Positions 1,592 to 59,298 of a DNA stretch of 64,000 nucleotides are shown here, piece after piece. The DNA is from Elusimicrobiales bacterium (GTDB lineage Bacteria > Elusimicrobiota > Elusimicrobia > Elusimicrobiales > UBA9959). The stretch spans positions 1,099 to 65,098 of the forward strand of contig DAOPZW010000001.1 in NCBI GenBank assembly GCA_035353595.1. The letters run 5' to 3'. The notes under the pieces were generated by a model. It saw only the letters and a list, made by a program, of their open reading frames with translations, searched no databases and was not told the DNA's origin. The position numbers and the translations under genes were made by a program. Within the stretch, counting starts at the first letter, position 1, and every line of letters begins with the position of its first letter.

Positions 1592-1771
1592 TCAGTTCAC
1601 GGCCTCCAGTTCCGCCAGCGTTTTCGTTATTTCGGCCGCCGCGGCCTTCATCAGGGCCAGCATTTCTTTTTTTTCAGGGGCGGAGCAGTCCTTGTAAAGC
1701 TCGGCGGCGCTCTTGAGGCTGGAGCATTTCGACCTCAGGTCGTGCAGCAGTTTGGAAGGGTCGGCGGTCAT
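1592..1771 (-). CDS. 59-aa helical His-containing protein (mini HPt-like), paralogue of 11955..12137
   Basis: Hand translation: MTADPSKLLHDLRSKCSSLKSAAELYKDCSAPEKKEMLALMKAAAAEITKTLAELEAVN. ATG at 1771 lies 9 nt after the regulator stop (1781) and is preceded by GGAG. Absent from the ORF track because it is under 60 aa. Aligns along its length with the 60-aa product of 11955..12137. Confidence 0.7.
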   Translation of the reverse strand: MTADPSKLLHDLRSKCSSLKSAAELYKDCSAPEKKEMLALMKAAAAEITKTLAELEAVN

Positions 1772-1780
1772 GCGGTCTCC

Positions 1781-3127
1781 TTAAATCTTGTCCCCGCTCT
1801 TTTTGAGCGTGGCGTAGAGCAGCCTGGTGGAGATCTTAAGGGCCGCCAGCGTTTTTGTGCGGCTGCCCTCGTTCTCGTCCAGGTTCCTTTTGATTATTTC
1901 CGCTGAAACTTTATCCAGCGCGGCTTCCAGGCCGTGGGCCAGCGCATAGGCGTAAAGGTCCTCGCCGGCGGGCCCCGCCGCGGGGCTGCCGGCGGGACCC
2001 GCCGCGCGGCCTTTCAAGTGCTTCTGCGCGGTCTCCAGGCTTACCCTGCCGCCGGGGCCGCCGGCCACCAGGTCCGTGAACTTCTTCAGTTCGCGGATAT
2101 TGCCGGGCCATGCATAGCTTCCCATGAATTCCCTGGCCTCGGGCGTGAAAGCCAGGCGCCGGCCGGTTTTGGTGAAGTGCAGCACCAGCGGGAAAATATC
2201 GCAGCGGCGGCGCGCCAGCGGCTTGAGCGTTATTGTATAGCCGTGCACGCGGTGGAACAGGTCGAAGCGCAGCTTGCCCTGCGCTATCAGCGCCTGCGGG
2301 TCTTCCAGCGTGGCGCTGATGATGCGGAACTCCGAGCGCTCCGGCTTTTCCGAGCCCAGCGGGTAGAAGGAGCGCTCCTCCAGCGCCTTGAGCAGCTTGG
2401 TCTGCATGTTCAGGCTCATGGCGCCTATCTCGTCGAGGAATAGCGTGCCTTTGTGCGCTTCCAGCAGGCGGCCTTTGCGCGCTTCGGAGGCGCCGGTGAA
2501 AGCGCCTTTCTTGTAGCCGAACAGTTCCGCTTCCAGCAGGTCTTCGGAATAGGCCGAGCAGTTGATGGCCACGAAAGCGCCGTCCCGCCCGGAATGCTCG
2601 TGCAGGATCTTGGCCAGAGAGGTTTTGCCGGTGCCGGAGGGGCCCAGGATCACGATGGGCAGCTCGGTGGGCGCGTATTTGAGCGCCTCGGCGGCCGCGG
2701 CCTTCGTTTCCGGGTCCTGGGTGATGAAAGCGTCCGCGAAGATGTCGGCGGCGCCGGCGGCTTTGCGGTGCTGCAGGAATTTCTGCAGGATGTCCGCCAC
2801 GTTGCGCTCTTCGTTGCCCTTGGCGTAGAAGTCGCCCGCGCCCGCCTCGTAGGCCTTGTCTATCATCTCGTCGGAATCGGAGCTGGACACCACCACGGCG
2901 TAGAGCCCTTTGTCCACGGCCCGCGGGATCGCCTTGAGGCCGGAGTAATCGTCGCCGGGGCCCAGCATCAGGTCGAAGAAGCCCAGGTCGTAGCGCCCGG
3001 TCTCCAGTTTTTTCAGGGCGGTCTTAAGGTCGCCCGCCAGGTCCACGTTGTGCGCGGCCAGCTGCGCGGCCATAACTTTCTGGGCCAGCTTGTCGTCTTC
3101 CACCACCAGGATATTCAGCTTTTCCAT
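1781..3127 (-). CDS. Sigma-54-dependent response regulator (REC + AAA+ + Fis-type HTH), here 'EBP1'
   Basis: REC domain ('LNILVVEDD', 'FFDLML'), Walker A 'GPSGTGKT', sigma-54 contact loop 'GAFTGA', 'WPGNIRELK', C-terminal HTH. The likely start is MEKLNILVVEDD at 3127, not the ORF-track start at 3157. Confidence 0.92.
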   Translation of the reverse strand: MEKLNILVVEDDKLAQKVMAAQLAAHNVDLAGDLKTALKKLETGRYDLGFFDLMLGPGDDYSGLKAIPRAVDKGLYAVVVSSSDSDEMIDKAYEAGAGDFYAKGNEERNVADILQKFLQHRKAAGAADIFADAFITQDPETKAAAAEALKYAPTELPIVILGPSGTGKTSLAKILHEHSGRDGAFVAINCSAYSEDLLEAELFGYKKGAFTGASEARKGRLLEAHKGTLFLDEIGAMSLNMQTKLLKALEERSFYPLGSEKPERSEFRIISATLEDPQALIAQGKLRFDLFHRVHGYTITLKPLARRRCDIFPLVLHFTKTGRRLAFTPEAREFMGSYAWPGNIRELKKFTDLVAGGPGGRVSLETAQKHLKGRAAGPAGSPAAGPAGEDLYAYALAHGLEAALDKVSAEIIKRNLDENEGSRTKTLAALKISTRLLYATLKKSGDKI

Positions 3128-3146: not shown

Positions 3147-3168
3147 AATATTTTCAAATGAAAATGTT
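3147..3168. promoter_or_regulatory. Palindromic upstream activator site AATATTTTCA-AA-TGAAAATGTT
   Basis: 22-bp near-perfect inverted repeat in the divergent EBP1/RpoN-like intergenic region, about 90 bp upstream of the -24/-12 promoter at 3251. The same core recurs at 4428 and at 57680/57700. Confidence 0.6.
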
Positions 3169-3250
3169 AACCCTTGGAACTATTATACAGAAGTTGCGGG
3201 TATAGTGTATCTCCTATAGAAAAACGGTGGCGCGGGTGCCGCCTGTTTTT

Positions 3251-3266
3251 TGGCATAAAAATTGCT
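3251..3266 (+). promoter_or_regulatory. Sigma-54 (-24/-12) promoter TGGCAT-AAAAA-TTGCT
   Basis: Matches the TGGCAC-N5-TTGCW consensus with correct GG/GC spacing. Nearly identical to the sites at 4525, 57799 and 10397 (minus strand). Confidence 0.75.
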
Positions 3267-3310
3267 CTGCTGCGGGTACAATGACTATAATATGCCTTGA
3301 GAGAAAAACT

Positions 3311-4390
3311 ATGACAAGATCTTACCGCACAGGGCTGCACCACGTGACCGGGGCAAAAACTTCCGCCTCCGTAATGGGCGCCGTTAAAATGGGCCAGCTG
3401 GCCGCCATGAGCGAGGAGGAATTCGAGAAAAGCCTGCTCGAGATGGAGAGCGGCCGCACTTTCCAGCTGCTCAAGGCCTCCGGCGCCGTGAACCTGGCCG
3501 AATTCCCGTCGGCGCGCTACGCCGCGCGCAAATACGCGGGCTACGGTCTTAAACTTTCCGGCGGGGACCTGCCCGAACTGGCCGACGGCAAAGGCGACCT
3601 GGTGGCCCTGATCCAGGGAATCGGCCAGGAGAAGTTCGAAGCCTGCTTCCTTAAAGACGCCGCGATGAGCGACGTGGAGCGGGCCGAAGAGTGCGATATC
3701 AGCGTGGCCGACGCGCAGCGCCTGCGCGATTTTGTGAACCGGGCTTTCATCCAGGCCGAGTTCGAAGGCGCGGCCGAGGCGCCGGCGGCCAAAGTTTTCA
3801 GCGCGGTGGCCGGCATTGAACTTAATGACGGCGAGCCGCAGCTGGGCTTCTTCCACCGCGAGGTGTGGAAAGGCCGCTACAAGGTGGACGCCGAAAAGCT
3901 GGCGGCCCTGCTGCCGGGGCTGCCGCAGGCCGAGCAGAACCGCGTGGAGAAGCTGCTGCGCAAGCTGGAATTCGCCGACAAGCGCAAGACCACGCTGTAC
4001 CGCGCGCTGGAGATCCTGATCAGCGTCCAGGCCGAGTACCTGGCCACCGGCGAGGCCGGCCGCCGCCGTCCGCTGTCGCAGCGGACCATGGCTAAAAACC
4101 TGGATGTGGACGCCAGCGTGTTCAACCGCCTGATCTCCAATAAATCGATACAGATGCCCTGGGGCATGGAAGCGCCCATGAGCGCGCTGCTGCCCAGCCC
4201 CAAGAAAGTGAACATAGACCGGCTTTATGAGATCGCGTCCGAAAAACCCGAGCTCAGCGACGAGGCCCTGCGCACCGAACTGAAGACGCGCCACGGCATA
4301 GCCCTTTCGCGGCGCTCGGTGGCGCAATACCGCAAGGATCTCGGCCTGCAGTCCGGCGGCCGGCGCGCGCCCGAAGCGGCGCAAGAGTGA
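3311..4390 (+). CDS. Short, divergent sigma-54 (RpoN)-like factor
   Basis: Collinear with the RpoN C-terminal two-thirds: 'KRKTTLYRALEILISVQAEYL', HTH 'PLSQRTMAKNLDVDASVFNRLISNKSIQMPWG', RpoN box 'IALSRRSVAQYRKDLGL'. About 360 aa, against roughly 480 for typical RpoN. Start is uncertain (ATG 3281 or 3311). The ORF-track start at 3227 lies upstream of the predicted promoter. Confidence 0.75.
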   Translation: MTRSYRTGLHHVTGAKTSASVMGAVKMGQLAAMSEEEFEKSLLEMESGRTFQLLKASGAVNLAEFPSARYAARKYAGYGLKLSGGDLPELADGKGDLVALIQGIGQEKFEACFLKDAAMSDVERAEECDISVADAQRLRDFVNRAFIQAEFEGAAEAPAAKVFSAVAGIELNDGEPQLGFFHREVWKGRYKVDAEKLAALLPGLPQAEQNRVEKLLRKLEFADKRKTTLYRALEILISVQAEYLATGEAGRRRPLSQRTMAKNLDVDASVFNRLISNKSIQMPWGMEAPMSALLPSPKKVNIDRLYEIASEKPELSDEALRTELKTRHGIALSRRSVAQYRKDLGLQSGGRRAPEAAQE

Positions 4391-4409
4391 CCGGCCTTGA
4401 GCCGCCATA

Positions 4410-4441
4410 TTTTCATGCGAGAATATATTTTCAAATGAAAA
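4410..4441. promoter_or_regulatory. Upstream activator sites (TTTTCA-TG-CGAGAA degenerate copy plus TTTTCA-AA-TGAAAA)
   Basis: Full palindrome at 4428..4441, degenerate copy at 4410..4423, and an extra TGAAAA half-site at 4494..4499. All lie upstream of the -24/-12 promoter at 4525. Confidence 0.55.
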
Positions 4442-4524
4442 CATTTGCGTTCAAACCTGTTGCGGTCTTGCCTCTCCCAAACAGTTCCTCAAATGAAAAC
4501 CGGGCGGCTCCTGGTGATCCCCGG

Positions 4525-4540
4525 TGGCATAATTATTGCT
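4525..4540 (+). promoter_or_regulatory. Sigma-54 (-24/-12) promoter TGGCAT-AATTA-TTGCT
   Basis: Consensus GG/GC spacing. Followed by TCT, as at the other sites. Confidence 0.75.
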
Positions 4541-6117: not shown

Positions 6118-6648
<531 letters not shown>

Positions 6649-8037: not shown

Positions 8038-8304
8038 TCACTCATAATGGGTCCACATACGCAGCACTTTGACCGTGTGCTCGGGCTTGTAGACCTGGTA
8101 GACGAGGCGGTGCTTGATGTTAATGCGCCGCGAGTAGGCGCCGGCGAGGTCGCCGACGAGCCTTTCGTAGGGGGGAGGGTTCTGGAACGGGTTGGCGCGC
8201 AGAACGGCGAGCAGCGCCTCCGCGCGGGCGCGCAGGCCCGCGGCCTGGAGTTTTTTCGCGTCCTTGCAGGCGTCCCGCGTGAAGACGAGCTCCCAGCCTA
8301 CCAT
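8038..8304 (-). CDS. yoeB: YoeB/Txe-family type II toxin (mRNA interferase)
   Basis: 88 aa starting MVGWELVFTRDACKDAKKL, ending 'YSRRINIKHRLVYQVYKPEHTVKVLRMWTHYE', the YoeB signature. Overlaps the antitoxin stop by 7 nt. Confidence 0.85.
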   Translation of the reverse strand: MVGWELVFTRDACKDAKKLQAAGLRARAEALLAVLRANPFQNPPPYERLVGDLAGAYSRRINIKHRLVYQVYKPEHTVKVLRMWTHYE

Positions 8305-8540
8305 GGCAGCTTCTTGGCGCACTTTGAGACGGGGGTCTTCATGTTCTTGACCAGGGAGTCGCGCATGCCGGGAACAGACAGGAGGTAGAGCGTTTCCTGG
8401 ATGGCGTCCCAATCCTCGGCCGAGACGAGGACTGCGGCGGCGCGGCGGCCCTGGATCTGGACGGGGTGGTGGGTTGTCACGGCCGCGTCCACGAGGTGGA
8501 AGAGCTGGGCACGGGCCTGGCTGGTGGTTAGGGTTGTCAT
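8298..8540 (-). CDS. yefM: YefM/Phd-family antitoxin
   Basis: 80 aa. 'MTTLTTSQARAQLFHLVDAAVTTHHPVQIQGRRAAAVLVSAEDWDAIQETLYLLSVPGMRDSL' is the typical Phd/YefM fold sequence. The ORF-track N-terminal extension is rejected. Confidence 0.85.
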   Translation of the reverse strand: MTTLTTSQARAQLFHLVDAAVTTHHPVQIQGRRAAAVLVSAEDWDAIQETLYLLSVPGMRDSLVKNMKTPVSKCAKKLPW

Positions 8541-8835
8541 ATACTTATTGTACCAGATATTGTACCACTTGGCAAGGGGGGGGGGCTGTGGTGGCATTGT
8601 AAACCAGGATGAATAACTGTAATGCGGAATTAACAATAGCGGATGACAGGGATTCGCCGCGCGGTGTCGTGGAAGTAGAAGTTTTGCGACACTCGAAGAA
8701 AGAACGGGGAAATCCCACGACGAGAAAAGACAAGACGGGGGTGGACTTTTGCGACACTGAGGGAGGGTTGGGATAATTGGGGGAGTATTTTCGTGTCTGC
8801 CTATGGAAAATGGCGACTTCAGAAGAGGCTGCGGG

Positions 8836-9696: not shown

Positions 9697-10347
9697 TTAT
9701 TTCCGAACAGGAGGATTAATCGGCAGGGGATGAAGCGCGGCACCGCCGCCACCGCCGCTGCCACCACCACCACTATTGCTCGGTGGTGTCGGAGTAGGTT
9801 CGTATTCCGAACAGACTTTGACTACTTGATCTATAAAATGGTCTACAACCCAGGTGGCGACCGTTGTGAGAATCCATGTAACACATTTACCTTTGGTAGC
9901 ACCATTAGCAGAAAGATTATAACGAATCGTGTTCAGTAGTATTTCATTGTCAATAGTGTTTAAGGTTTCCCCATCCTTCATTATTAGTATTTGGTTAGGC
10001 AATTTTAAAGTAATGATTACCCCTTCAATCTTTAGGTTTTTTTCAATGCTATCATCATGCAATCTTTGTGTATTGTATGAAGCTACAATATCTTTTATTA
10101 ACTGCTGTTTGCTTCTCATGGGGCTTTCTTTTGTGCCTGGCTCTACTTTGTTTGTTTCAAGGAAGGCGGATACGGTGGGAATTGGCAATGCCACCGTCTC
10201 GAAATCAGATAAAGCTTTCTTGAAGCCATCTAAAGATGATGTCAGATTGCCTCCCCTGTCAAAGTCAATTTGCATTTCCTCGGCCCTGGCCATCGAGGCC
10301 GCCGTCATCACCGCGAAGATCGCTATCAGTATGCTGGTCTTTTTCAT
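9697..10347 (-). CDS. Secreted protein with Gly-rich C-terminal tail, unknown function
   Basis: 216 aa. Signal peptide MKKTSILIAIFAVMTAASMARA. C-terminus 'PTPTPPSNSGGGGSGGGGG'. AGGAG RBS. Sits directly downstream of a sigma-54 promoter. Confidence 0.6.
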   Translation of the reverse strand: MKKTSILIAIFAVMTAASMARAEEMQIDFDRGGNLTSSLDGFKKALSDFETVALPIPTVSAFLETNKVEPGTKESPMRSKQQLIKDIVASYNTQRLHDDSIEKNLKIEGVIITLKLPNQILIMKDGETLNTIDNEILLNTIRYNLSANGATKGKCVTWILTTVATWVVDHFIDQVVKVCSEYEPTPTPPSNSGGGGSGGGGGAALHPLPINPPVRK

Positions 10348-10396
10348 AATTCTCTTATCTCCTAACCTTTAGATTTTGTGCCGTCACCTTTGTATA

Positions 10397-10412
10397 GGCA
10401 ATATTTATGCCA
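10397..10412 (-). promoter_or_regulatory. Sigma-54 (-24/-12) promoter TGGCAT-AAATA-TTGCC (minus strand)
   Basis: The reverse complement of GGCAATATTTATGCCA matches the consensus spacing. Lies ~50 nt upstream of the ATG at 10347. Confidence 0.7.
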
Positions 10413-10609: not shown

Positions 10610-11953
10610 ATGCAAAAACTGAAGATACTGGTTATTGAGGATGACAGCCTGGCGCGCGAGGTGATGGCCGAGAACTTGGCCGGCCATGCGGTGGACTTTG
10701 CCGCGGATAAGGCCGCGGCCGAGCGCAGGCTGAAGGCCGGGGATTACGATATCTGTTTTGTGGATCTGCTTCTGGGCGTGGACGATGACTATTCCGGGCT
10801 GAAGTTGATTCCATTGGCGGCGGCTAAGAAAATATACACGGTGGTGATGTCGGGTTGCGATACCGAGGACACCATAAGCCGCGCCTATGCGCTGGGTTGC
10901 AGCGAGTTCTACGTCAAAGGCAATGAGGTGGCCAATATCCCGGCCATCATAGTCCGGTATCTGCAGGGTGACGGGGGGAAGAAAGCGCAGGAAATCTTCG
11001 CCGGGGATTTTATTACCCACGACCCAGAGACACGCGGGCTGGTGACGGAGGCGCTTAAATATGCCGCCACGAGCCTGCCGTTGATGATATTGGGGCCCTC
11101 GGGGACGGGCAAGACTACGCTAGCACAGTTATTGCACGACCATTCCGGCCGGGAAGGGGATTTTGTGGCGATGAACTGTTCGGCCTATACAGAGGATCTG
11201 CTGGAGGCCGAGCTGTTCGGCTATAAGCGCGGAGCGTTCACCGGCGCGCACGAAAACCGCAAAGGGAAACTGGCCCAGGCGGACAAGGGCACGCTGTTCC
11301 TGGACGAGATAGGCGCCATGAGCCAGAATATGCAGGTAAAGCTGCTCAAAGCCATAGAAGAGAAGCGTTTTTCTCCGCTGGGTTCGGACAAGCCCGAGTA
11401 TTCCGACTTCCGTGTGATGAGCGCGACGCTGGAGGACGTGCAGAAGCTGCTTGCCGAGAAACAACTGCGGTTCGATTTCTTCCAGCGCGTGCACGGCATG
11501 ACGATAACGCTTAAACCTCTGGCGCAGAGGAAATGCGACATTTTCCCTCTGATGCAGGCTTTGACCAGAAAGGGGAAGCGGCTGGCCTTCGAGCCCGAGG
11601 CCAGGGAGTACGTGCTGGCGCATAACTGGCCAGGCAATACGCGGGAGCTAAAACGCTTTGTGGAGCTAGTAAGCGCCGGCACGCATGGACAGGTAACGCT
11701 GGAGACCGCGCGCCGGCATATTACGCCCGCCGCGCCGGCTACGGCGGCCACCGGGGCGGCGGCGGGGGAATACTATGATTATGCGCTTAAACACGGCTTG
11801 GCGGCCGCGGTGGACCGCCTTACGGGGGAACTGGTAAACCGCAGCCTGGACGAGAACGGCGGCAAGAGGGCAGCAGTCCTGGCGCAGCTTAAGATCTCAA
11901 AGCGTCTTTTGTATGGTACGCTGTCGAAAACGCGCGGACCGGAGGGAAAATAA
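10610..11953 (+). CDS. Sigma-54-dependent response regulator, paralogue of 1781..3127 ('EBP2')
   Basis: Starts MQKLKILVIEDD (AAGGGGA RBS). 'GPSGTGKT', 'GAFTGA', 'WPGNTRELK', C-terminal HTH. Long identical runs with EBP1, for example DLLEAELFGYK, GTLFLDEIGAMS, ITLKPLA, CDIFPL. Confidence 0.92.
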   Translation: MQKLKILVIEDDSLAREVMAENLAGHAVDFAADKAAAERRLKAGDYDICFVDLLLGVDDDYSGLKLIPLAAAKKIYTVVMSGCDTEDTISRAYALGCSEFYVKGNEVANIPAIIVRYLQGDGGKKAQEIFAGDFITHDPETRGLVTEALKYAATSLPLMILGPSGTGKTTLAQLLHDHSGREGDFVAMNCSAYTEDLLEAELFGYKRGAFTGAHENRKGKLAQADKGTLFLDEIGAMSQNMQVKLLKAIEEKRFSPLGSDKPEYSDFRVMSATLEDVQKLLAEKQLRFDFFQRVHGMTITLKPLAQRKCDIFPLMQALTRKGKRLAFEPEAREYVLAHNWPGNTRELKRFVELVSAGTHGQVTLETARRHITPAAPATAATGAAAGEYYDYALKHGLAAAVDRLTGELVNRSLDENGGKRAAVLAQLKISKRLLYGTLSKTRGPEGK

Positions 11954-11954
11954 C

Positions 11955-12137
11955 ATGGCCGACATCGAGAAGATCTATCACAATATAAAGTCCAAGGCGG
12001 TAAACCTTAAAGCGGCGGCTGAGCAACTGGATAAATATCCGCAGGATAAGCGCGATAAATTTATACCGCTCATGCGTGAGGCGGCGCAGGACATTATAAG
12101 ACTGTTGGGTGAGCTGGAGGCGCAGCCCCGGAAGTAA
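11955..12137 (+). CDS. 60-aa helical His-containing protein (mini HPt-like), paralogue of 1592..1771
   Basis: MADIEKIYHNIKSKAVNLKAAAEQLDKYPQDKRDKFIPLMREAAQDIIRLLGELEAQPRK. ATG is 2 nt after the EBP2 stop, with GGAGGG upstream. Shares H-x-[LI]-[RK]-S-K-x3-L-K-x-AAE and the ...LM+-AA--I---L-ELEA pattern with the 1592..1771 product. Confidence 0.7.
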   Translation: MADIEKIYHNIKSKAVNLKAAAEQLDKYPQDKRDKFIPLMREAAQDIIRLLGELEAQPRK

Positions 12138-12156: not shown

Positions 12157-14289
12157 TTAACTTTCTGACTTCACGCCCCAGGGGGCTTCTTTGGTAACCA
12201 CCCGCAGCCAGGGAAGGTGGGCGAATCTTTGCGGCGGGTGGCCGGTGGCCAGGGAAATATTGGTGTAACCTTTCTCTTTGAGCTCGACGGCTATGTTTTC
12301 ACCTTTTATGTTGTCGCCGAGCTCGGAATCTATATAAAGTGGAATATCTTTGGGGAAGTCGCCCAGGCTTGCCAAGAACTCGGCCGGGTTGGTAAACGCC
12401 TTGAGTTCGATGCCGTTTTCCTGGGCGGCCCATTCCCAGTTCATATGCGTGATGGCGTCGTCGTCCAGCAGGACCGCCCGCGTAGGCGGGGCGGCGGCTA
12501 CCGAAACAGGCACAAAACCGGACAAGCTTTTGGGGATCATCCGCACTTTAAGCCGGGCGCATTCCTCAATTATCCGTTTTTCTTCGCAGCGGCTGGTGAC
12601 CAGTATTGTCTGGCCGCAAAGGCCGAGCTCTTCGGCCAGGCCTAAGCCGGTTTCTTTATAGCCCGCAAGCTCATAGTCGAAAAGACAGACGGCGCTTTCG
12701 GCTTTTGCTGAATTGTCTTTAATCCAGGAGCGTAATTTATCAGGCTCGCAGAAATGGAGAATTTCAATATCATATTCTTTGACGCGGGCGGATTCGAACC
12801 AGCCGCGCCAGATCTGGTGGATGCCGGGGTCGTCATCAAGTACTACTACCGGGCGGCCGGGGGGAAGTGCTAGCGCTGACACGAAACCGGCCGGGGCCGC
12901 AGCCTTGGGCAGTTTTATGGTGACTGTGGTACCTTTGCCGGGCGTTGAAGCGATTGCCAGGCTGCCGCCCCAGCTTTCCGCGGTGGACCTGGCGTGGAAC
13001 AGGCCGAGGCCCGAGCCGCCGGCTTTGCCGTGGGTTTCGCCCTTTTGCCCGAGCTTTGTCAGGATCTCGGGCGGTATGCCTTTGCCTGTGTCCGATACCG
13101 TCAGAACAACTTTTTCATCTTCATGTGTTAACTTCACGTCCACCGCACCTTTATCCCCCAAGGCCTCGACGGCATTATTGACCAGGTTGGAGATCATGCG
13201 CCGGAATTCGATCGGCTGGAGCCTGGCGAACAGGCCGTAGGATTCCCGTGTTAATTCAAAATCAATATTGATGCCGGGCTTTGATCCGAATTGCAGGCGC
13301 TTTTCCGTGACGACCGGATCTATGAGGCTTGAGAGCAGGCGAACTTCCGGAGGCTCGCCGGCGACATGGCCGCCGGCGGCTCTGCCGGCTACAGCGCTTG
13401 GCTGCTGCCGGTTCTTTTCGAGAAGGTTGTTGGCTATGTCGCGTATACGATTGACCGCGTGGCGCACCATAATGCGCTGCTTCTCTGGGAGTTGTTCTGT
13501 GTTCTTGAGCGCGGCGTCCAGAGCTACCAGAGGGGAGCGGATATCGTGGGCGACCTGGGCGGCCATATTGGAAACGGCCTTGCTTACGGCAAGCTCGCTT
13601 TCAAGGCGCGCGGCCAGCCCCAGCGCGTCGCTCATGCGGTTGGTCATCTGGGCGAAAGGCACGCCTATAATATCCGCCGGGAGAGTTTCTATATGGCACT
13701 TTATCGAATCGCGGATAATGTCGCTCCGGCCGGACCCGGCTATGGCGTTTATCTCGTTGATGGAGCGCTCGATGGCCAGCAGCGTCCGCATAGCGCCCAG
13801 GTTGGAAATTATCAGCAGCCCCAGGAAGAAGAATACCACGGTGATGAACAGAATGTAATTCTGCCCGAACGCCACGGCGTTAACGTCCACAAGGTCTATG
13901 ACATATTCAAGCCGGCCAAGCTCCGCGCCGTTAGAGATGAATGGGACATTGTGTGTTATCTGGGCGCGAGACCTGTCGTAAAGGTTGCCGACTATGGCCT
14001 CTTTAAAGATCCACCGGCTGCCCTCGAACCCTACCGGGTGGAAAGTGATGCGCTTGATGTTGTCGTTCTTGATGCGCCACATGATGCGTTGCGTCTCGAA
14101 GACGTCACCATCAAGAAAAGCCTTCTCGAAGTAAGCTGCGTTCTGACGCATGGCGGTCAGCAGCTTGTCGTTCGCCACACGCACTGCGGAGAAGGCCGAG
14201 AACGCCTGCCAGAAAGCGACAAAGACCAGCACCGACACTACGTAGTGCCGCCAATTGTAGGCAAGAATGCGGGCAAAAAGTCTTACCAT
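12157..14289 (-). CDS. Hybrid sensor histidine kinase (2 TM, HisKA, HATPase_c, two C-terminal receiver domains)
   Basis: H-box 'AHDIRSPLVAL'. N/G boxes 'NLVNNAVEA', 'DTGKGIPPE', 'GGSGLGLFHA'. REC1 'VVVLDDDPG...CLFDYEL...ILVTS...MIPK'. REC2 'AVLLDDDA...LYIDSEL...SLATG...VVTK'. Confidence 0.88.
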   Translation of the reverse strand: MVRLFARILAYNWRHYVVSVLVFVAFWQAFSAFSAVRVANDKLLTAMRQNAAYFEKAFLDGDVFETQRIMWRIKNDNIKRITFHPVGFEGSRWIFKEAIVGNLYDRSRAQITHNVPFISNGAELGRLEYVIDLVDVNAVAFGQNYILFITVVFFFLGLLIISNLGAMRTLLAIERSINEINAIAGSGRSDIIRDSIKCHIETLPADIIGVPFAQMTNRMSDALGLAARLESELAVSKAVSNMAAQVAHDIRSPLVALDAALKNTEQLPEKQRIMVRHAVNRIRDIANNLLEKNRQQPSAVAGRAAGGHVAGEPPEVRLLSSLIDPVVTEKRLQFGSKPGINIDFELTRESYGLFARLQPIEFRRMISNLVNNAVEALGDKGAVDVKLTHEDEKVVLTVSDTGKGIPPEILTKLGQKGETHGKAGGSGLGLFHARSTAESWGGSLAIASTPGKGTTVTIKLPKAAAPAGFVSALALPPGRPVVVLDDDPGIHQIWRGWFESARVKEYDIEILHFCEPDKLRSWIKDNSAKAESAVCLFDYELAGYKETGLGLAEELGLCGQTILVTSRCEEKRIIEECARLKVRMIPKSLSGFVPVSVAAAPPTRAVLLDDDAITHMNWEWAAQENGIELKAFTNPAEFLASLGDFPKDIPLYIDSELGDNIKGENIAVELKEKGYTNISLATGHPPQRFAHLPWLRVVTKEAPWGVKSES

Positions 14290-15696: not shown

Positions 15697-15717
15697 TACA
15701 AAAGGGCGATCACCAGA

Positions 15718-17154
15718 CTAGCGCGCCGGCGGTTTTTCAGCTTCACTGCAGGGGGCAAGCAGACATTTATTTGCGCGCTCCTGGAGGTTTTCGTAGTCCA
15801 CACCGCTAGCCAGAGCTTTTTCATATTCTGCACAGGCCAGCTCCCGCTCACCGAGGAGATCGCGGCAATTTCCGATATAAAAATGCGACAAGGCATCCCA
15901 GACCGGCTTCAACGAACCAGCCTGCCCCAGGATGGCGTTATTGAATTCTTCGATGGCTTTTTGATGCTTTCCGGCGGCCATATGTACGCGCCCAAGAATA
16001 TGCCAGGAATACTCGTCCGTGGGTTTGTCTGCCAAAGCGCGGAGAAGTCCTGATTCCGCCTTATCATAAATCCCGGCGTTAAAATAGCTTTCTGCCAGAT
16101 CCTTTTCCACCTGCGCTCTGGCATAGGCCTCATCGCCGCTTTTATCGCCGAACACGTACCCGCCTCCGTTCACGGGCGGCAGTGAAAAGCCACTGAACTC
16201 CGCTGCGGAAGGATATGCCTCCGTCCCTCCAGGCTGCAGGATGAAGAATTCCCGGTCCGTCCCGACAACAGAGGACTTGACCTTGATGTTTTCTCCGATG
16301 AGGCAGATAAGCCGTTTTGGATAAAGGTTGCCGAAAAACCACTCCGGGCTGACATCACCTATGCCCGCCGTCTCCCTGACCCGCCTGGCAAGGGCGCTTT
16401 CCGGTTCAAATTTGAATCTTCTGGCTAGGGTAGGGTCAACTGGGACCCAACCAAAAGGCGGAAGAAAGACCTCCGCCCATTGATGGCCGCCGTTTTTTAA
16501 CCAGTTACAGGTCACCGTCCTCGCGGGGATGCCCTGTGAGCGGCATAGAGAGATAAAAACAGCGCAGAATTCACCGCAATCGCCTTTCAACCTCTTAAGA
16601 GACTTCGATGCTCCGCGAGATTTAAAGTCTGGATATTCATAGTGGAGGTTATCCACTACCCACATAAAAATCTTTTTAGCGATAAAATATGGGTTGCGCT
16701 CCCCTCCGGCTATCTCTTGCGCTTTTGCCATAATCTCACCGGAGATATCAAGCCAGCCCTCGGATATCGTATAGCGGACATACTCGGCAGAATTTTTGTC
16801 GCACCAGGAAACACGCTTCGGGTCTATCTTAATAGACACTCCCTCGAACTCCAGGTCGAAATCATAGTAAAAGGTCGCTTGGCCGCTACCGGCCAGGCTC
16901 CCGGCTTTTGTATTCCAGATAAGGATCCGATTGCCGTTGGGCTGGTCGTCGATGATAGCCGAAGGCTGCGGCGAGAAAGTGAGATTCTCAACCCGCTGTC
17001 CCATATGGTTCATCGGTAGGGAAAAGAAAAGGGTTATCTCACCCACGCCAGTTGCTGACAATTTTAGATTGTCCACGAAATACCAATATCTACCATGAAC
17101 ACGGCAGCGTTCAGGCGCGATTTGGATGGGAGCTGTGCGGGATTCTTCAGGCAT
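15718..17154 (-). CDS. Transglutaminase-like (Cys-His-Asp) enzyme with C-terminal TPR repeats
   Basis: 'GDCGEFCAVFISLCRSQGIPARTV...GGHQWAEVFLPPFGWVPVDPT' is the transglutaminase-core triad context. The C-terminal ~120 aa is TPR-like. No signal peptide. Confidence 0.75.
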   Translation of the reverse strand: MPEESRTAPIQIAPERCRVHGRYWYFVDNLKLSATGVGEITLFFSLPMNHMGQRVENLTFSPQPSAIIDDQPNGNRILIWNTKAGSLAGSGQATFYYDFDLEFEGVSIKIDPKRVSWCDKNSAEYVRYTISEGWLDISGEIMAKAQEIAGGERNPYFIAKKIFMWVVDNLHYEYPDFKSRGASKSLKRLKGDCGEFCAVFISLCRSQGIPARTVTCNWLKNGGHQWAEVFLPPFGWVPVDPTLARRFKFEPESALARRVRETAGIGDVSPEWFFGNLYPKRLICLIGENIKVKSSVVGTDREFFILQPGGTEAYPSAAEFSGFSLPPVNGGGYVFGDKSGDEAYARAQVEKDLAESYFNAGIYDKAESGLLRALADKPTDEYSWHILGRVHMAAGKHQKAIEEFNNAILGQAGSLKPVWDALSHFYIGNCRDLLGERELACAEYEKALASGVDYENLQERANKCLLAPCSEAEKPPAR

Positions 17155-17165
17155 GTGTAAATGGA

Positions 17166-18053
17166 CTATGTTGAGAGTGCGGCCAGAGTTTTCCGACCCT
17201 TAGCTCTTAAACTGAAAAGATACTTGCACATGGCGCAAGGCGCTGAATGCTGTGGGGAGAACTTGGGGGAGGGAATCTTAAAATACTCTATCAATTCCTG
17301 GAAAGTTTTTTTGCGCATGATAGAATAGAACTCGCTGCCGAGATGTCCTGCCAACGTCGGATGCACATATCCTCTCCCATCCCCGTCCAATGCAAGATGG
17401 GAACAACATGTGGTAAAACCTTCGCCGGGAAGATAAATCAGTTTATTGTTGTTTGGGCATTTTTTCTGCAGGACGTCCGCGTCAAAGCTCGGGTAAATGT
17501 GCTGTAGTTTGTTCTTTTGCGCCGCACCTATAGGGTGTATCGGCTGAACACCGACCGGGAAGTCCCCCATCTTTTTAAGATCTTTGATAAGCAGAAGGTC
17601 CATTGGGGTCTGGACCGTCATCAAGACATTAAAGCTTCTGCCGCTCCGCCTGCATGCAGAATAAAGATTTGACAGGTTCGCCTCTTTCTGGAACGCTTTA
17701 TGGAAGCGGTCGTATGATAACTGGACGCCGGAAAGCGCCCTAAACTCGTTTAGGACCGTTAAGGCGGCCGCTTCGGTCCTGGCGAAGTGCCCGTTAGTGG
17801 TTATCTTTATTTGCGGGAAGGGCGCGTATTTGATTCCGGAGAGAATCGTGTTTATCTTGTCTATGTACAATGTCGGTTCACCGCCGACAAAAAGCAGCGA
17901 CTGGAACTGATATGTATTTATTGCTCTGATTAGAAGATGGATCTCTTCTTCGGTAAGACTTACCTGGCGCTTTTCGCTGACCCCGCAATGCGCACAGTTG
18001 AAATTACATCTATATCCTACAAGTATACTGCAGCTGGTCGGCCTATTTCGCAT
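17166..18053 (-). CDS. Radical SAM enzyme (short, with C-terminal Cys cluster)
   Basis: 'YRCNFNCAHC' is the CxxxCxxC motif. 'GGEPTL' SAM-binding motif. C-terminal Cys residues ('TTCCSH', 'CAMC') suggest an auxiliary cluster. Confidence 0.8.
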   Translation of the reverse strand: MRNRPTSCSILVGYRCNFNCAHCGVSEKRQVSLTEEEIHLLIRAINTYQFQSLLFVGGEPTLYIDKINTILSGIKYAPFPQIKITTNGHFARTEAAALTVLNEFRALSGVQLSYDRFHKAFQKEANLSNLYSACRRSGRSFNVLMTVQTPMDLLLIKDLKKMGDFPVGVQPIHPIGAAQKNKLQHIYPSFDADVLQKKCPNNNKLIYLPGEGFTTCCSHLALDGDGRGYVHPTLAGHLGSEFYSIMRKKTFQELIEYFKIPSPKFSPQHSAPCAMCKYLFSLRAKGRKTLAALST

Positions 18054-18134
18054 AAAATAGCTGGCATTACCAGGATATCGTATAAAAAGACGGCGGGGTC
18101 AGCAAGCATGGGACAGTTGATGTCTAGACCTGAG

Positions 18135-18338
18135 TTATCCGACTTTTTTAGTATCCCCGGCAGCATCAAATACCGGAGATTCACACACCAGAACCCCGGT
18201 ATCAGAAATCTTGGCAACCGAAAATAATTTCGTTCTTTCGCCTATAGAAAGCGTCTGAACATACTGCATAGCCTGGGTAGTGGAAAAAATCCCTACGGAA
18301 ACCAGGAAGGCCGCTATCACTTTATCTTTGTTCGTCAT
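18135..18338 (-). CDS. 67-aa secreted small protein, candidate radical-SAM substrate
   Basis: AAGGGGA RBS 6 nt before the ATG. MTNKDKVIAAFLVSVGIFSTTQA|MQYV... has a signal or leader with an AxA-like site. The predicted mature ~44 aa has one Cys. It is the first gene of the operon, directly upstream of the rSAM gene. Confidence 0.5.
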   Translation of the reverse strand: MTNKDKVIAAFLVSVGIFSTTQAMQYVQTLSIGERTKLFSVAKISDTGVLVCESPVFDAAGDTKKVG

Positions 18339-18994: not shown

Positions 18995-21426
<2,432 letters not shown>

Positions 21427-57798: not shown

Positions 57799-57814
57799 TG
57801 GCATATAAATTGCT
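57799..57814 (+). promoter_or_regulatory. Sigma-54 (-24/-12) promoter TGGCAT-ATAAA-TTGCT
   Basis: Consensus spacing. Followed by an ~85-nt leader and an AAGGAG RBS before the ATG at 57911. Confidence 0.75.
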
Positions 57815-57910: not shown

Positions 57911-58213
57911 ATGGAAGCTAATGAAAAAGGGGTTTCGCGGCGCGACGCGCTCAGGCGGATGGCGAAAGTTACGATGGGCATCGGCATGGGCCTGCAGCTC
58001 GTAGGATCTTTTGTGCCGTCGGGGCACGCGGCGGTGACCGCGGCGCAGGGCGCCAGATTCAGTACAATAGGGCAGGTGTCCTCTCCCGCCATAGGCGTGG
58101 CGACGGCCGGCGCTGTGAACAGCGTCACCAGGGAGGGCTGCTATACGAACGGCGCCGGTTACAGCAATAACGGCTACCAGCCGTACAGCAAATACGTTAA
58201 CTGCAATCCGTAA
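57911..58213 (+). CDS. 100-aa precursor-like protein with twin-arginine signal peptide
   Basis: 'VSRRDALRRMAKV' is a Tat motif. Followed by the h-region 'TMGIGMGLQLVGSFV' and 'GHA|AV'. C-terminus 'REGCYTNGAGYSNNGYQPYSKYVNCNP' is Tyr/Asn/Gly-rich with two Cys 20 residues apart. AAGGAG RBS. Confidence 0.7.
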   Translation: MEANEKGVSRRDALRRMAKVTMGIGMGLQLVGSFVPSGHAAVTAAQGARFSTIGQVSSPAIGVATAGAVNSVTREGCYTNGAGYSNNGYQPYSKYVNCNP

Positions 58214-58223
58214 GCTGAACCTC

Positions 58224-58266
58224 GTTGCGCCGCGGCGGCCGCAGCGCCGCCGCGGCGCGGCGCAAC
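58224..58266 (+). promoter_or_regulatory. GC-rich intercistronic stem-loop after the precursor gene
   Basis: GTTGCGCCGCGGCGG...CCGCCGCGGCGC(GGCGC)AAC imperfect inverted repeat. No T-run follows, so it is more likely an attenuator or stabiliser than a full terminator. Confidence 0.45.
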
Positions 58267-58296
58267 CGGGGGAGACAAGACGAAGAAAAACACAAT

Positions 58297-59298
58297 ATGC
58301 CCAACATCCTGCTCACACAAAAATGCGTCCGTTCCTGTCCTTACTGTTTCGCCAAGAAACAGATGAACGACGGCGACAGCGGTGAAATAATAAAGTGGGA
58401 AGACATGGTTTACCTGGCGGACCTGTTCTCCCGGGGCGGCTGCCGCGAAATGCGGTTCCTGGGCGGCGAGCCCACGCTGCACCCGGCTTTCGCCGACTTT
58501 CTCGCCTATTCCCTGACGCGCGGTTTTTCCGTAACGGTCTTCAGCAGCGGCATCATGTCGGACAAGGTCAAAGAAGATCTGCGGCGGGTCTATAAGACCG
58601 TGCCGCAGGCCGACAAGAACGTTTCCTTTCTCTGCAACCTCAACGACCCCGAGCTGTCCCCGCCCGCCGAAAACAAGCGCGTCGAGGAATTCCTGGAAGA
58701 ATTCGGGGCCTGGGTGATGCCCGGCTTCAATATCTACCGGAAGGACTTCAGCCTGGATTTCCTGTTCCGCTATATCAACCGCTACGGCCTGCGGCGCTCC
58801 ATCCGGCTGGGCCTGACGCACCCGATCCTGGGCGAGAGCAATTCCTTTATAGCCATTCCCGAGATGCAGGGCATAGTGGACCGGCTGCTGGGCTACCTGC
58901 CGCAGTTCAACCAGCAGGACGTGGTGCCCGGGCTCGACTGCGGCTTCCCGATGTGCCTTTTCAGCGACAGCCAGCTGGGGCAGCTGTATAAAGCCACCAA
59001 GGGTTCCCAGAGATTTACCTGCGGTGTGCCGCTGGATATCGGGCCGGACATGACGGCCTGGGGCTGCTTCCCGCTGTCGGCCACGCACCGCAAATCCGTG
59101 TACGAATTCGACGATTATAACCAGATGACGGAATACTTTACGACTTTCGCGCAGGACATCAGAAAAGAGGCCGGCGGCATCTACGAGAAATGCGACGCCT
59201 GTACCTGGCGGAAAAAAGGCATGTGCGACGGCGGCTGCGCGGCGCATATGCTGCGCGAAATAGCCAAGGAGGGCGGCGTGCGCGCTTTCAAAATATGA
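58297..59298 (+). CDS. Radical SAM/SPASM-domain enzyme 1
   Basis: 'QKCVRSCPYCFAKK' is the CxxxCxxC motif. 'GGEPTLHP'. C-terminal 'CDACTWRKKGMCDGGCAAH' is a SPASM-like Cys cluster. Confidence 0.85.
   Translation: MPNILLTQKCVRSCPYCFAKKQMNDGDSGEIIKWEDMVYLADLFSRGGCREMRFLGGEPTLHPAFADFLAYSLTRGFSVTVFSSGIMSDKVKEDLRRVYKTVPQADKNVSFLCNLNDPELSPPAENKRVEEFLEEFGAWVMPGFNIYRKDFSLDFLFRYINRYGLRRSIRLGLTHPILGESNSFIAIPEMQGIVDRLLGYLPQFNQQDVVPGLDCGFPMCLFSDSQLGQLYKATKGSQRFTCGVPLDIGPDMTAWGCFPLSATHRKSVYEFDDYNQMTEYFTTFAQDIRKEAGGIYEKCDACTWRKKGMCDGGCAAHMLREIAKEGGVRAFKI

What the first reader, a model, noticed from the sequence alone, without database searches (positions are those of the whole stretch)
1592..1771. Unannotated 59-aa gene: a minimal HPt-like His protein coupled to each sigma-54 response regulator (copy 1)
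A 59-codon ORF is missing from the ORF track because it falls below the size cutoff. It starts 9 nt after the EBP1 stop, behind a GGAG.

Its product aligns end-to-end with the 60-aa protein encoded 2 nt after EBP2 (11955..12137):
- MTADPSKLLHDLRSKCSSLKSAAE...LMKAAAAEITKTLAELEAVN
- MADIEKIYHNIKSKAVNLKAAAEQ...LMREAAQDIIRLLGELEAQPRK

Both are predicted to be helical hairpins with an invariant His in the motif H-x-[LI]-[RK]-S-K-x3-L-K-x-AAE. This resembles the HPt signature (H-x-L-K-G-S-x3-L-G-A) and the kinase H-box (HDLRSPL). At half the size of a normal HPt domain, they would be an undescribed minimal phosphotransfer or phosphatase module.
Basis: partly seen in the sequence, partly recalled or inferred. 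Interest (0 to 1): 0.7.

Follow-up and report, generated by a model that had tools for sequence, protein, structure and literature searches.

The report
Bare kinase-hairpin histidine protein beside sigma-54 activators
A real, conserved 59-residue gene of Elusimicrobia encodes just the histidine-bearing helical hairpin of a sensor kinase, sits directly behind a sigma-54 activator gene, and most likely passes phosphate from a hybrid kinase to that activator, although no experiment has tested this.

Summary
ORF 1592..1771(-) follows the EBP1 stop by 9 nt, behind an AAGGAG. It is paralogous to 11955..12137(+) (38% identity, E 4e-12). It is already annotated publicly as a hypothetical protein.

The family has 85 clusters at 50% identity, nearly all 50-100 aa. 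Every taxonomically named source is Elusimicrobia, with several copies per genome. His is kept in 85 of 87 members.

It is not an HPt domain. It is a stand-alone DHp (HisKA-type) hairpin:
- AF2 gives a hairpin at pLDDT 94.
- HisKA is the Pfam family most members match (25/87; the best sits exactly at the gathering cutoff).
- ChpT is the best meaningful PDB and NCBIfam match, with His aligned on its phospho-His.
- hhalign against the DHp of the neighbouring kinases gives E 1.5e-4.

The gene lies directly 3' of a REC-AAA+ activator in 26 of 30 loci. A compact sigma-54-like gene follows it in 19. A hybrid kinase with two receiver-fold domains and no HPt is usually nearby.

Best reading (about 0.5): a minimal ChpT/Spo0B-type histidine phosphotransferase, playing the LuxU or ShpA role. 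Phosphatase and inhibitor roles are not excluded. All evidence is computational.

The parts
1592..1771 (-). Copy 1 of the 59-aa stand-alone DHp-like His protein. His10 lies in HDLRSK. Helix 5-26, loop 27-30, helix 31-58.
   Evidence: Translation. Homologues. AF2 pLDDT 94. Weak HisKA and ChpT similarity.
1777..1782 (-). Shine-Dalgarno AAGGAG, 5 nt before the ATG, overlapping the EBP1 stop codon (1781-1783). This suggests coupled translation.
   Evidence: Read directly from the sequence.
1781..3127 (-). EBP1: response regulator of 448 aa with REC, sigma-54 AAA+ and HTH parts. It has an intact DD/D/S/K receiver quintet and a GAFTGA loop.
   Evidence: Pfam Sigma54_activat 2e-56 and Response_reg 1e-11. 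Alignment of 15 homologues.
3251..3265 (+). Sigma-54-type -24/-12 element TGGCATAAAAATTGC, in the divergent intergenic region upstream of the sigma-54-like gene.
   Evidence: one of four exact TGGCAT-N5-TTGC sites, all with A/T-only spacers and at least three in intergenic DNA (the 10398 site is upstream of the 9697..10347(-) gene but inside the longest EBP2 ORF).
3311..4390 (+). Compact sigma-54-like protein of 359 aa, divergent from EBP1. In 19 related loci its homologue lies directly 3' of the small ORF.
   Evidence: Pfam Sigma54_DBD 1.8e-15. PDB RpoN 5ui5 1.3e-12. hhalign against E. coli RpoN 95%, C-terminal part only. Context.
10610..11953 (+). EBP2: the second REC-AAA+-HTH sigma-54 activator. 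The start is taken at MQKLKILVIEDD; the longest ORF starts at 10376.
11955..12137 (+). Copy 2 of the small DHp-like His protein (60 aa; His9 in YHNIKSK).
12157..14289 (-). Hybrid histidine kinase of 710 aa, convergent with copy 2. It has TM segments, a DHp with AHDIRSPL (about residues 240-292), a CA domain (360-463) and two receiver-fold domains (about 480-590 and 600-700). No HPt domain.
   Evidence: Pfam. Alignment of 11 homologues. AF2 of residues 470-710 gives two (beta-alpha)5 domains, pLDDT 76. Foldseek top hits are tandem-receiver proteins, PleD and ShkA.

Best explanation
The 59-aa protein and its 60-aa paralogue are free-standing DHp (HisKA-type) domains. That is the dimerisation and histidine-phosphotransfer hairpin of a sensor kinase, without a sensor and without an ATPase domain.

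Inferred mechanism:
- Two hairpins pair into a four-helix bundle that displays His10 on helix 1.
- The bundle accepts phosphate from an aspartate of a receiver domain of the associated hybrid kinase (DHp-CA-REC-REC, no HPt).
- It passes the phosphate to the receiver aspartate of the REC-AAA+-HTH activator encoded immediately upstream.
- The activator then drives TGGCAT-N5-TTGC promoters, probably together with the module's own sigma-54-like factor.

The protein would therefore do the job of LuxU in LuxQ/N-LuxU-LuxO, or of ShpA in ShkA-ShpA-TacA. It would use the ChpT/Spo0B type of fold, stripped of their C-terminal domain.

Shown here: a real conserved gene, the hairpin fold, a near-invariant His in an H-box-like motif, similarity to HisKA and ChpT, conserved gene order, and hybrid kinases with two receiver folds.

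Inferred only: dimerisation, phosphorylation of the His, and the direction of phosphate flow.
For: 1. The gene is real and under constraint. The profile search found 85 clusters at 50% identity, nearly all 50-100 aa. H10 is kept in 85/87 members, M41 in 84/87, the H+4 Ser in 76/87. GC3 follows the coding frame.

2. The fold is a two-helix hairpin: H5-26 and H31-58, mean pLDDT 94.

3. DHp homology, His in register in the alignments that were printed:
- HisKA is the Pfam family most members match, 25 of 87.
- P0162 scores 26.9 bits, exactly the gathering cutoff, E 5.2e-6. P0154 scores 22.7 bits.
- The profile search against PDB sequences puts ChpT (4fmt, 4fpp) as the best meaningful hit, E 0.06, over both helices, with the family His on LCHDFISP.
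- The only NCBIfam hit of copy 1 is histidine phosphotransferase ChpT, E 0.017.
- hhalign against the DHp of the neighbouring kinases gives E 1.5e-4, 45 columns, HDVxSKC on HDIRSPL.
- Foldseek gives HK853 at TM 0.77, rmsd 1.3 A.

4. Context:
- A REC-AAA+ activator ends within a few nt of the small ORF, or overlaps it by 4-8 nt, in 26 of 30 distinct loci with upstream sequence.
- The activators keep the DD/D/S/K quintet and a GAFTGA-type loop (GSFTGA in one) in 15/15.
- Homologous kinases are present in 17 related loci, besides the one in this window.
- Both C-terminal domains of these kinases keep DDD, D, T and K and fold as tandem receivers resembling PleD and ShkA. No HPt domain was detected.

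5. The variable helix-1 positions H+3, H+7, H+10/11 and H+14 form a stripe on the His face between invariant positions. From my own knowledge (Skerker 2008; Casino 2009), H+7 and H+11 are where kinases encode receiver specificity.

6. Precedents:
- Hybrid kinases -> LuxU -> LuxO at the luxOU locus (PMC4398556).
- ShkA (Rec1-Rec2) -> ShpA -> TacA (PMC6969517).
- From my own knowledge, the isolated EnvZ DHp 'domain A' (67 aa) dimerises, is phosphorylated in trans and serves OmpR in vitro (Park 1998; Zhu 2000).
Against: - There is no biochemical, proteomic or expression evidence.
- The sequence similarities to HisKA and ChpT are individually weak (E 0.13 and 0.017 for the window protein; hhalign probability only 51%).
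- The fold search returns only generic hairpins, none with E below 1e-3.
- The kinase's receiver-like domains are divergent. Pfam Response_reg is sub-threshold (2/8 and 6/8 members), so their competence as phospho-acceptors is inferred from conserved residues.
- Copy 1 has no kinase in its own operon.
- Helix 1 is unusually conserved across paralogues, which fits a shared partner as well as it fits specific relays.
- The gene is linked to the sigma-54-like gene (19 loci) almost as tightly as to the activator.
- Two members lack the His, and one extra paralogue has Cys there (L029).
- I could not check whether these genomes lack ordinary HPt proteins.
Confidence: 0.5

Rival explanations
1. It is a stand-alone DHp acting as a phosphatase or phosphate sink for the activator. 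The hairpin dimer docks on the phosphorylated receiver of the co-translated activator and catalyses or accelerates dephosphorylation, as the DHp of bifunctional HisKA kinases does. This would give negative feedback because it is made from the same mRNA.
For: - It has the same DHp similarity and hairpin fold as above.
- The H+4 position, which in HisKA kinases carries the Thr/Asn needed for phosphatase activity (my knowledge, Willett and Kirby 2012), is a near-invariant Ser (76/87). The cognate kinases also have Ser there.
- It is translationally coupled to the activator.
- From my own knowledge, isolated EnvZ domain A has OmpR-P phosphatase activity (Zhu 2000).
Against: - From my own knowledge, phosphatase activity of DHp domains often survives loss of the His. 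Yet the His is the most conserved residue in this family (85/87).
- The H+1 acid is lost in the copy-2 subfamily (N, G, T, A) while the His stays.
- The accompanying kinases are hybrids with no HPt. That leaves a missing relay step which this protein would fill.
Confidence: 0.2
2. It is a non-catalytic binding protein. One option is an anti-activator that holds the activator's receiver (or its AAA+ ring) inactive. Another is a decoy that forms heterodimers with the DHp of the hybrid kinase and blocks it, in the manner of Sda or KipI acting on KinA.
For: - It is a small amphipathic hairpin with a conserved hydrophobic seam.
- It resembles the DHp of the neighbouring kinase, which would allow mixed bundles.
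- It is co-expressed with the activator.
Against: - A pure binder has no need for a near-invariant His inside an H-box-like motif with D at H+1 and S at H+4.
- No similarity to Sda, Spo0E or known anti-activators appeared among the Pfam families that the members match most often.
Confidence: 0.12
3. It is a partner of the private sigma-54-like factor. It could be a co-factor, chaperone or anti-sigma, or a trans-acting substitute for sigma-54 region I. It would be placed between the activator and sigma genes because it bridges them.
For: - The sigma-54-like gene starts within a few nt of, or overlaps, the stop of the small ORF in 19 of 32 distinct loci with downstream sequence.
- In L008 and L026 the small ORF stays with the sigma-like gene although no intact activator precedes it.
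- The N-terminal 200 aa or so of the sigma-like protein cannot be aligned to known sigma-54.
Against: - Thirteen loci, including both in this window, have the small ORF without an adjacent sigma-like gene.
- By eye, the sigma-like proteins carry their own region-I-like N-terminus (MRLxL...GQMKLARLLEMPExEFExRIRELEAxPLF, same spacing as E. coli residues 5-48).
- No member gave a Sigma54_AID match among the commonest Pfam families.
- This role does not explain the H-box.
Confidence: 0.1

Closest known systems
ChpT (Caulobacter, Brucella), Spo0B (Bacillus) and PhyT (Sphingomonas): DHp-type dimeric histidine phosphotransferases
   Same: - A helical hairpin with the phospho-His on helix 1, homologous to kinase DHp.
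- It shuttles phosphate between receiver domains.
- ChpT is the best meaningful PDB and NCBIfam match, with the family His aligned on the ChpT phospho-His.
   Different: - Those proteins are about 190-250 aa and keep a C-terminal pseudo-ATPase alpha/beta domain. This family is the bare 57-70 aa hairpin.
- Their genes are not linked to a sigma-54 activator.
- Phosphotransfer is untested here.
LuxU in the luxOU locus (hybrid kinases LuxN/LuxQ/CqsS -> LuxU -> LuxO), and ShpA in ShkA -> ShpA -> TacA
   Same: - System logic: a hybrid kinase without HPt, a small separate His protein, and a REC-AAA+ sigma-54 activator (PMC4398556; PMC6969517).
- The small gene lies directly after the activator gene, as luxU does after luxO.
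- ShkA, like the kinase here, carries two receiver-fold domains, and it is a Foldseek hit.
   Different: - LuxU and ShpA are monomeric four-helix-bundle HPt domains of about 110 aa and are not homologous to DHp.
- Here the fold is a two-helix DHp hairpin, which would have to dimerise.
HisKA (PF00512) DHp domain of sensor kinases, including the isolated EnvZ 'domain A'
   Same: - Hairpin fold and an H-box-like motif: H-D-[VIL]-x-S-[KR] against H-[ED]-[LI]-[RK]-[TSN]-P.
- The His-to-loop spacing is close to that of the cognate kinase's DHp, about two residues longer.
- 25 of 87 members match HisKA, and one is at the cutoff.
   Different: - There is no CA domain and no sensor.
- Lys or Arg replaces the helix-kinking Pro at H+5 (76/87).
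- The window protein scores only 12.8 bits against a cutoff of 26.9.
- EnvZ domain A is a laboratory fragment, not a natural gene.
Spo0E-family phosphatases and Sda: small helical hairpins that modulate phosphorelays
   Same: They are 46-85 aa antiparallel helical hairpins that act on receiver or DHp domains.
   Different: - There is no SQELD motif and no sequence similarity in the Pfam scans.
- Those families have no conserved phospho-acceptor His.

Membership tests
HPt domain (Pfam Hpt PF01627; LuxU, ShpA, Ypd1, ArcB-C) | Monomeric up-down four-helix bundle of about 100-120 aa | tested here: not met
   The protein is 59 aa. AF2 gives two helices only, H5-26 and H31-58, pLDDT 94.
HPt domain (Pfam Hpt PF01627; LuxU, ShpA, Ypd1, ArcB-C) | Match to the Hpt profile, with the H-x-x-K-G signature | tested here: not met
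   The two window proteins gave no Hpt hit at E<=1. Hpt is not among the 25 families most matched by the 87 members. The motif here is H-D-[VIL]-x-S-K.
HisKA / DHp domain (PF00512) | Antiparallel two-helix hairpin with the conserved His on helix 1 | tested here: met
   AF2 hairpin. His10 lies on helix 1 and is conserved in 85/87 members.
HisKA / DHp domain (PF00512) | Profile match at Pfam's gathering score | tested here: inconclusive
   - Window copy 1 scores 12.8 bits against a cutoff of 26.9. Copy 2 gives no hit.
- Across the family, 25/87 members match at E<=1. The best is 26.9 bits (equal to the cutoff), E 5.2e-6, and another is 22.7 bits.
- hhalign against the cognate kinase DHp gives probability 51%, E 1.5e-4.
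HisKA / DHp domain (PF00512) | Homodimeric four-helix bundle | not testable with these tools
The heptad-like hydrophobic seam is compatible with a bundle.
Sensor histidine kinase | HATPase_c catalytic domain in the same polypeptide | tested here: not met
   Members are nearly all 50-100 aa, the ORF ends at a stop codon, and no profile hit exceeds 144 aa.
ChpT / Spo0B-type histidine phosphotransferase | DHp-like hairpin carrying the phospho-accepting His | tested here: met
   The profile aligns over both ChpT helices with His on LCHDFISP (E 0.06). NCBIfam ChpT gives E 0.017. Both are weak but specific.
ChpT / Spo0B-type histidine phosphotransferase | C-terminal alpha/beta pseudo-ATPase domain | tested here: not met
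   The protein ends after helix 2.
ChpT / Spo0B-type histidine phosphotransferase | Reversible phosphotransfer between two receiver domains | not testable with these tools
   This needs biochemistry. The context supplies both receivers: the hybrid kinase REC-REC and the activator REC.
Spo0E-like aspartyl-phosphate phosphatase | SQELD motif on a helical hairpin | tested here: not met
   There is no such motif in the sequence or in the family consensus, and no Pfam hit.

The most novel reading that the evidence does not exclude
Elusimicrobia carry a multi-copy, lineage-specific regulatory cassette. Each cassette would contain:
- a hybrid kinase (DHp-CA-REC-REC);
- a 60-aa DHp-only protein that would be the smallest natural histidine phosphotransferase known;
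- a REC-AAA+ activator;
- a private, compact sigma-54 paralogue.

The cassette would drive TGGCAT-N5-TTGC promoters in front of secreted-peptide and radical-SAM operons. In this reading the phosphorelay intermediate has been reinvented from a kinase hairpin rather than from an HPt bundle.
Probability: 0.4. Interest if true: 0.7.

Novelty: new variant of a known kind. Interest (0 to 1): 0.6.

Why it matters
If the protein shuttles phosphate, a bare DHp hairpin would be sufficient in nature, as it is in the EnvZ domain-A experiments, to act as a histidine phosphotransferase. That would add a third and minimal solution beside HPt bundles and the ChpT/Spo0B proteins.

Such proteins are invisible to domain-based censuses of two-component systems, because they are sub-threshold for HisKA and often fall below ORF size cutoffs. 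Hybrid kinases in little-studied phyla may therefore only appear to lack a relay partner.

The cassette also pairs each activator with its own sigma-54-like factor. This is unusual for sigma-54 biology and gives a compact, testable system for studying how phosphorelay specificity is kept among many paralogues in one genome.

Tried and rejected
- **HPt membership:** rejected on size, fold and profile.
- **Sigma-54 region I supplied in trans:** considered because the small ORF abuts the sigma-54-like gene. Set aside because the sigma-like proteins have their own region-I-like N-terminus (read by eye) and there is no Sigma54_AID signal. hhalign and PDB searches align only the C-terminal third of the sigma-like protein, so this is not fully excluded.
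- **Zinc-binding anti-sigma idea (His plus Cys16):** rejected. Cys16 is Ala or Ser in the copy-2 subfamily.
- **Dimer prediction with a fused two-copy chain:** No complex with a receiver could be modelled.
- **The search for related loci with the broad alignments A2 and A1:** failed because no stretch was conserved enough. A narrower alignment, A3, worked.
- **Literature:** searches for natural stand-alone or DHp-only proteins, and for Elusimicrobia sigma-54 modules, found nothing relevant.
- **ORF 3167..4444(-):** looked like a candidate kinase next to EBP1 but is spurious. The real gene there is the sigma-54-like gene on the + strand.
- **Natural fusions:** the apparent fusions P0167 and P0202 are a remnant of a deleted activator gene and a chimeric call. 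They are not Rosetta-stone fusions.
- **Co-variation between the small protein and the receivers:** not attempted. About 30 pairs are too few.

Full report
**1. The observation**

The window carries a 59-codon ORF at 1592..1771 on the minus strand.
- Its ATG lies 9 nt after the TAA of a 448-aa gene (1781..3127, minus).
- That gene's product has Response_reg (1e-11) and Sigma54_activat (2e-56) domains.
- An AAGGAG overlaps that stop codon.

A second ORF of 60 codons (11955..12137, plus) starts one base after the stop of a second activator of the same type.
- The two small products share 38% identity over 55 ungapped residues, E 4e-12.
- GC content by codon position follows the coding pattern of the neighbours.

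The one correction is that both genes are already annotated in the public MAG, as hypothetical proteins PKI19_00020 and PKI19_00090 of an Elusimicrobiales bacterium.

**2. A real and sizeable family**

- Word-indexed searches gave 138 clusters at 90% identity for copy 1 and 22 for copy 2. All were 56-66 aa.
- A profile of both subfamilies, run against 1.84 billion representatives, found 85 clusters at 50% identity with E<=1e-3. Members are 49-144 aa, nearly all 57-83, and no large kinase was among them.
- In the 87-sequence alignment the His is kept in 85. Met41 is kept in 84, the Ser at H+4 in 76 and Ala at H+12 in 75.
- Every source that names an organism says Elusimicrobia. One record says only 'bacterium'.
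- Several MAGs carry two to four or more copies on different contigs.

**3. What the protein is**

AlphaFold2 with the family alignment gives a two-helix hairpin (5-26, 31-58) at mean pLDDT 94. A hairpin alone identifies nothing, and Foldseek duly returned only generic hairpins. HK853 was among them at TM 0.77 and rmsd 1.3 A.

The sequence evidence points consistently to the DHp (HisKA) hairpin of histidine kinases:
- HisKA is the Pfam family most members match (25 of 87). One member sits exactly at the gathering score (26.9 bits, E 5.2e-6) and another scores 22.7 bits.
- The family profile's best meaningful match among PDB sequences is the DHp of the histidine phosphotransferase ChpT. The match covers both helices, with the family His on the ChpT phospho-His (E 0.06).
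- The only NCBIfam hit of copy 1 is ChpT (E 0.017).
- hhalign against the DHp of the kinases encoded in these same loci aligns 45 columns, His on His, at E 1.5e-4 and probability 51%.

The kinase H-box reads AHDIRSPL and the small family reads HD[VIL]xSKC. Both have an acidic residue at H+1 and Ser at H+4. The small proteins have Lys where kinases have the kinking Pro. The protein does not meet the definition of an HPt domain in size, fold or profile.

**4. Context**

I called ORFs in 44 fetched loci and searched them with the window's activator, sigma-like protein and kinase. There were 34 distinct small peptides, and 30 of them have at least 400 nt of upstream sequence.

The activator lies directly upstream in 26 of those 30.
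- The script flagged 24. L014 and L017 were missed by my coordinate filter, but one search lists both with 4-nt overlaps.
- Gaps range from an 8-nt overlap to 9 nt.
- The four exceptions are explicable: L008 (a CLC gene upstream, with the activator and kinase convergent nearby), L016 (an IS30-like transposase inserted upstream), L026 (only a remnant of the activator gene is left) and a second, His-less copy in L029.

The activators keep the receiver quintet and a GAFTGA-type loop in 15 of 15 (GSFTGA in one).

Directly downstream of the small ORF, 19 of 32 distinct loci with downstream sequence encode a compact (343-382 aa) sigma-54-like protein. In this window its gene (3311..4390) is instead divergent from EBP1. 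Only the C-terminal third of that protein (ELH-HTH-RpoN box) is recognisably sigma-54.

A kinase homologous to window 12157..14289 is present in 17 related loci, besides the one in this window.
- Its DHp is nearly invariant across loci.
- Behind the CA domain it has two domains that keep DDD, D, T and K at the receiver positions.
- These domains are sub-threshold for Pfam Response_reg.
- A single-sequence AF2 model (pLDDT 76) shows two (beta-alpha)5 domains.
- The best Foldseek matches of that model are tandem-receiver proteins (3luf 6e-7, PleD about 1e-5, the hybrid kinase ShkA 1e-4) and single receivers.
- No HPt domain is detectable in the kinase.

**5. Mechanism**

The module has a hybrid kinase whose phosphate ends on its own receiver aspartate. 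It has a terminal response regulator with an intact receiver. It has no HPt. It does have a small, co-translated protein that is a DHp hairpin with a near-invariant His.

The simplest reading is a His-Asp-His-Asp relay in which the small protein, as a four-helix-bundle dimer, supplies the second His.

Two characterised relays have the same logic with a sigma-54 activator at the end:
- Hybrid kinases -> LuxU -> LuxO, encoded as luxOU (PMC4398556).
- ShkA (with Rec1 and Rec2) -> ShpA -> TacA (PMC6969517). That TacA is a sigma-54 activator is from my own knowledge.

ChpT and Spo0B show that a DHp-type bundle can do the HPt job. From my own knowledge, EnvZ domain A shows that 67 residues of DHp suffice in vitro.

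The variable helix-1 positions (H+3, H+7, H+10/11, H+14) line up on the His face between invariant residues. From my own knowledge of HK-RR co-variation, that is where kinases encode receiver specificity. This fits many insulated paralogous relays in one genome.

I give this explanation about 0.5. The steps not shown are dimerisation, phosphorylation of His10 and the direction of flow.

**6. Rivals**

- *Phosphatase or phosphate sink for the activator (0.2).* The Ser at H+4 and the coupling to the activator fit. The extreme conservation of the His, together with loss of the H+1 acid in the copy-2 subfamily, fits less well.
- *Non-catalytic binder or kinase decoy (0.12).* This does not explain the H-box.
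- *Partner of the sigma-54-like factor (0.1).* The linkage in 19 loci, and in L008 and L026, argues for it. Against it are 13 loci without an adjacent sigma-like gene and the region-I-like N-terminus of the sigma-like protein itself.

**7. Novelty**

I found no description of natural DHp-only proteins or of this cassette. The components and the logic are known kinds. The stripped-down DHp hairpin as a separate gene, fixed between an activator and a private sigma-54 paralogue, is a new variant.

Everything here is computational. The window protein's own similarity scores are weak, and the case rests on agreement between independent weak signals plus conserved context.

**8. Outputs of the module**

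Four exact TGGCAT-N5(A/T)-TTGC elements lie in the window:
- upstream of the sigma-like gene;
- upstream of a DUF4097 gene;
- upstream of the 216-aa gene divergent from EBP2;
- upstream of a roughly 100-aa ORF with a twin-arginine-like signal, followed by a radical-SAM gene.

This suggests what the cassettes control.

Noticed in passing
window 3311..4390 (+); homologues in L008, L010, L011, L013, L015, L021, L023, L025, L026 and others: A compact sigma-54-like protein family (343-382 aa). Only the C-terminal 140 aa or so (ELH-HTH-RpoN box) align to known sigma-54. The N-terminal 200 aa or so are unassignable by profile, although by eye they begin with a region-I-like motif. There is one such gene per cassette, so several sigma-54 paralogues per genome.
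   Followed up: partly
window 3251-3265 (+), 4525-4539 (+), 10398-10412 (-), 57799-57813 (+): Four exact sigma-54-type promoter elements TGGCAT-N5-TTGC, all with A/T-only spacers in a 59% GC window. They lie upstream of the sigma-like gene, a DUF4097 gene, a 216-aa gene of unknown function and a small secreted-peptide ORF.
   Followed up: partly
window 57912..58213 (+) and 58225..59298 (+): A roughly 100-aa ORF with a twin-arginine-like signal (SRRDALRRMA) and a Gly/Asn/Tyr/Cys-rich tail. A radical-SAM/Fer4_12 protein follows it, and one of the sigma-54 promoters precedes it. This looks like a RiPP-type precursor with its maturase.
   Followed up: partly
window about 15700..18300 (-); also L005, L006, L011: Near copy 2 and its relatives there are radical-SAM genes, 60-67-aa ORFs, a transglutaminase-core protein, a YcaO-like gene and SBP_bac_5 peptide-binding proteins. 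These are possibly peptide-modification and peptide-sensing genes under control of the cassette.
   Followed up: no
window 12157..12560 (-), kinase residues about 600-700: The second receiver-like domain of the hybrid kinase carries a conserved L-[AE]-T-G-H motif at the end of beta4. It recalls the 'FATGUY' motif described for intermediary receivers that talk to DHp-type phosphotransferases (PMC9981736).
   Followed up: no
L029 3337..3507 (-): An extra family member lies divergent from the activator and has Cys in place of the conserved His (LTCEVNSKC). P0164 (Phe) and P0194 (Gly) also lack the His.
   Followed up: no
L016 723..1691; L026 303..737; L035: Rearranged loci. L016 has an IS30-like transposase inserted upstream of the small ORF. 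In L026 a remnant of the activator's C-terminal lid is fused in frame to the small ORF. L035 is an inverted-duplicate contig, probably an assembly artefact.
   Followed up: partly
window 8038..8304 (-) and 8298..8597 (-): A YoeB/ParE-type toxin and a Phd/YefM antitoxin pair lie between the two cassettes.
   Followed up: no
window 6118..6555 (-) versus 19057..21333 (-): A 145-aa ORF matches the monomeric isocitrate dehydrogenase family (PF03971), and a full-length 758-aa gene of the same family lies in the window. The short ORF is probably a gene fragment.
   Followed up: no
window 3167..4444 (-): A 425-codon ORF antisense to the sigma-54-like gene is spurious. This is typical of GC-rich DNA and could mislead an ORF-length-based annotation.
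   Followed up: yes
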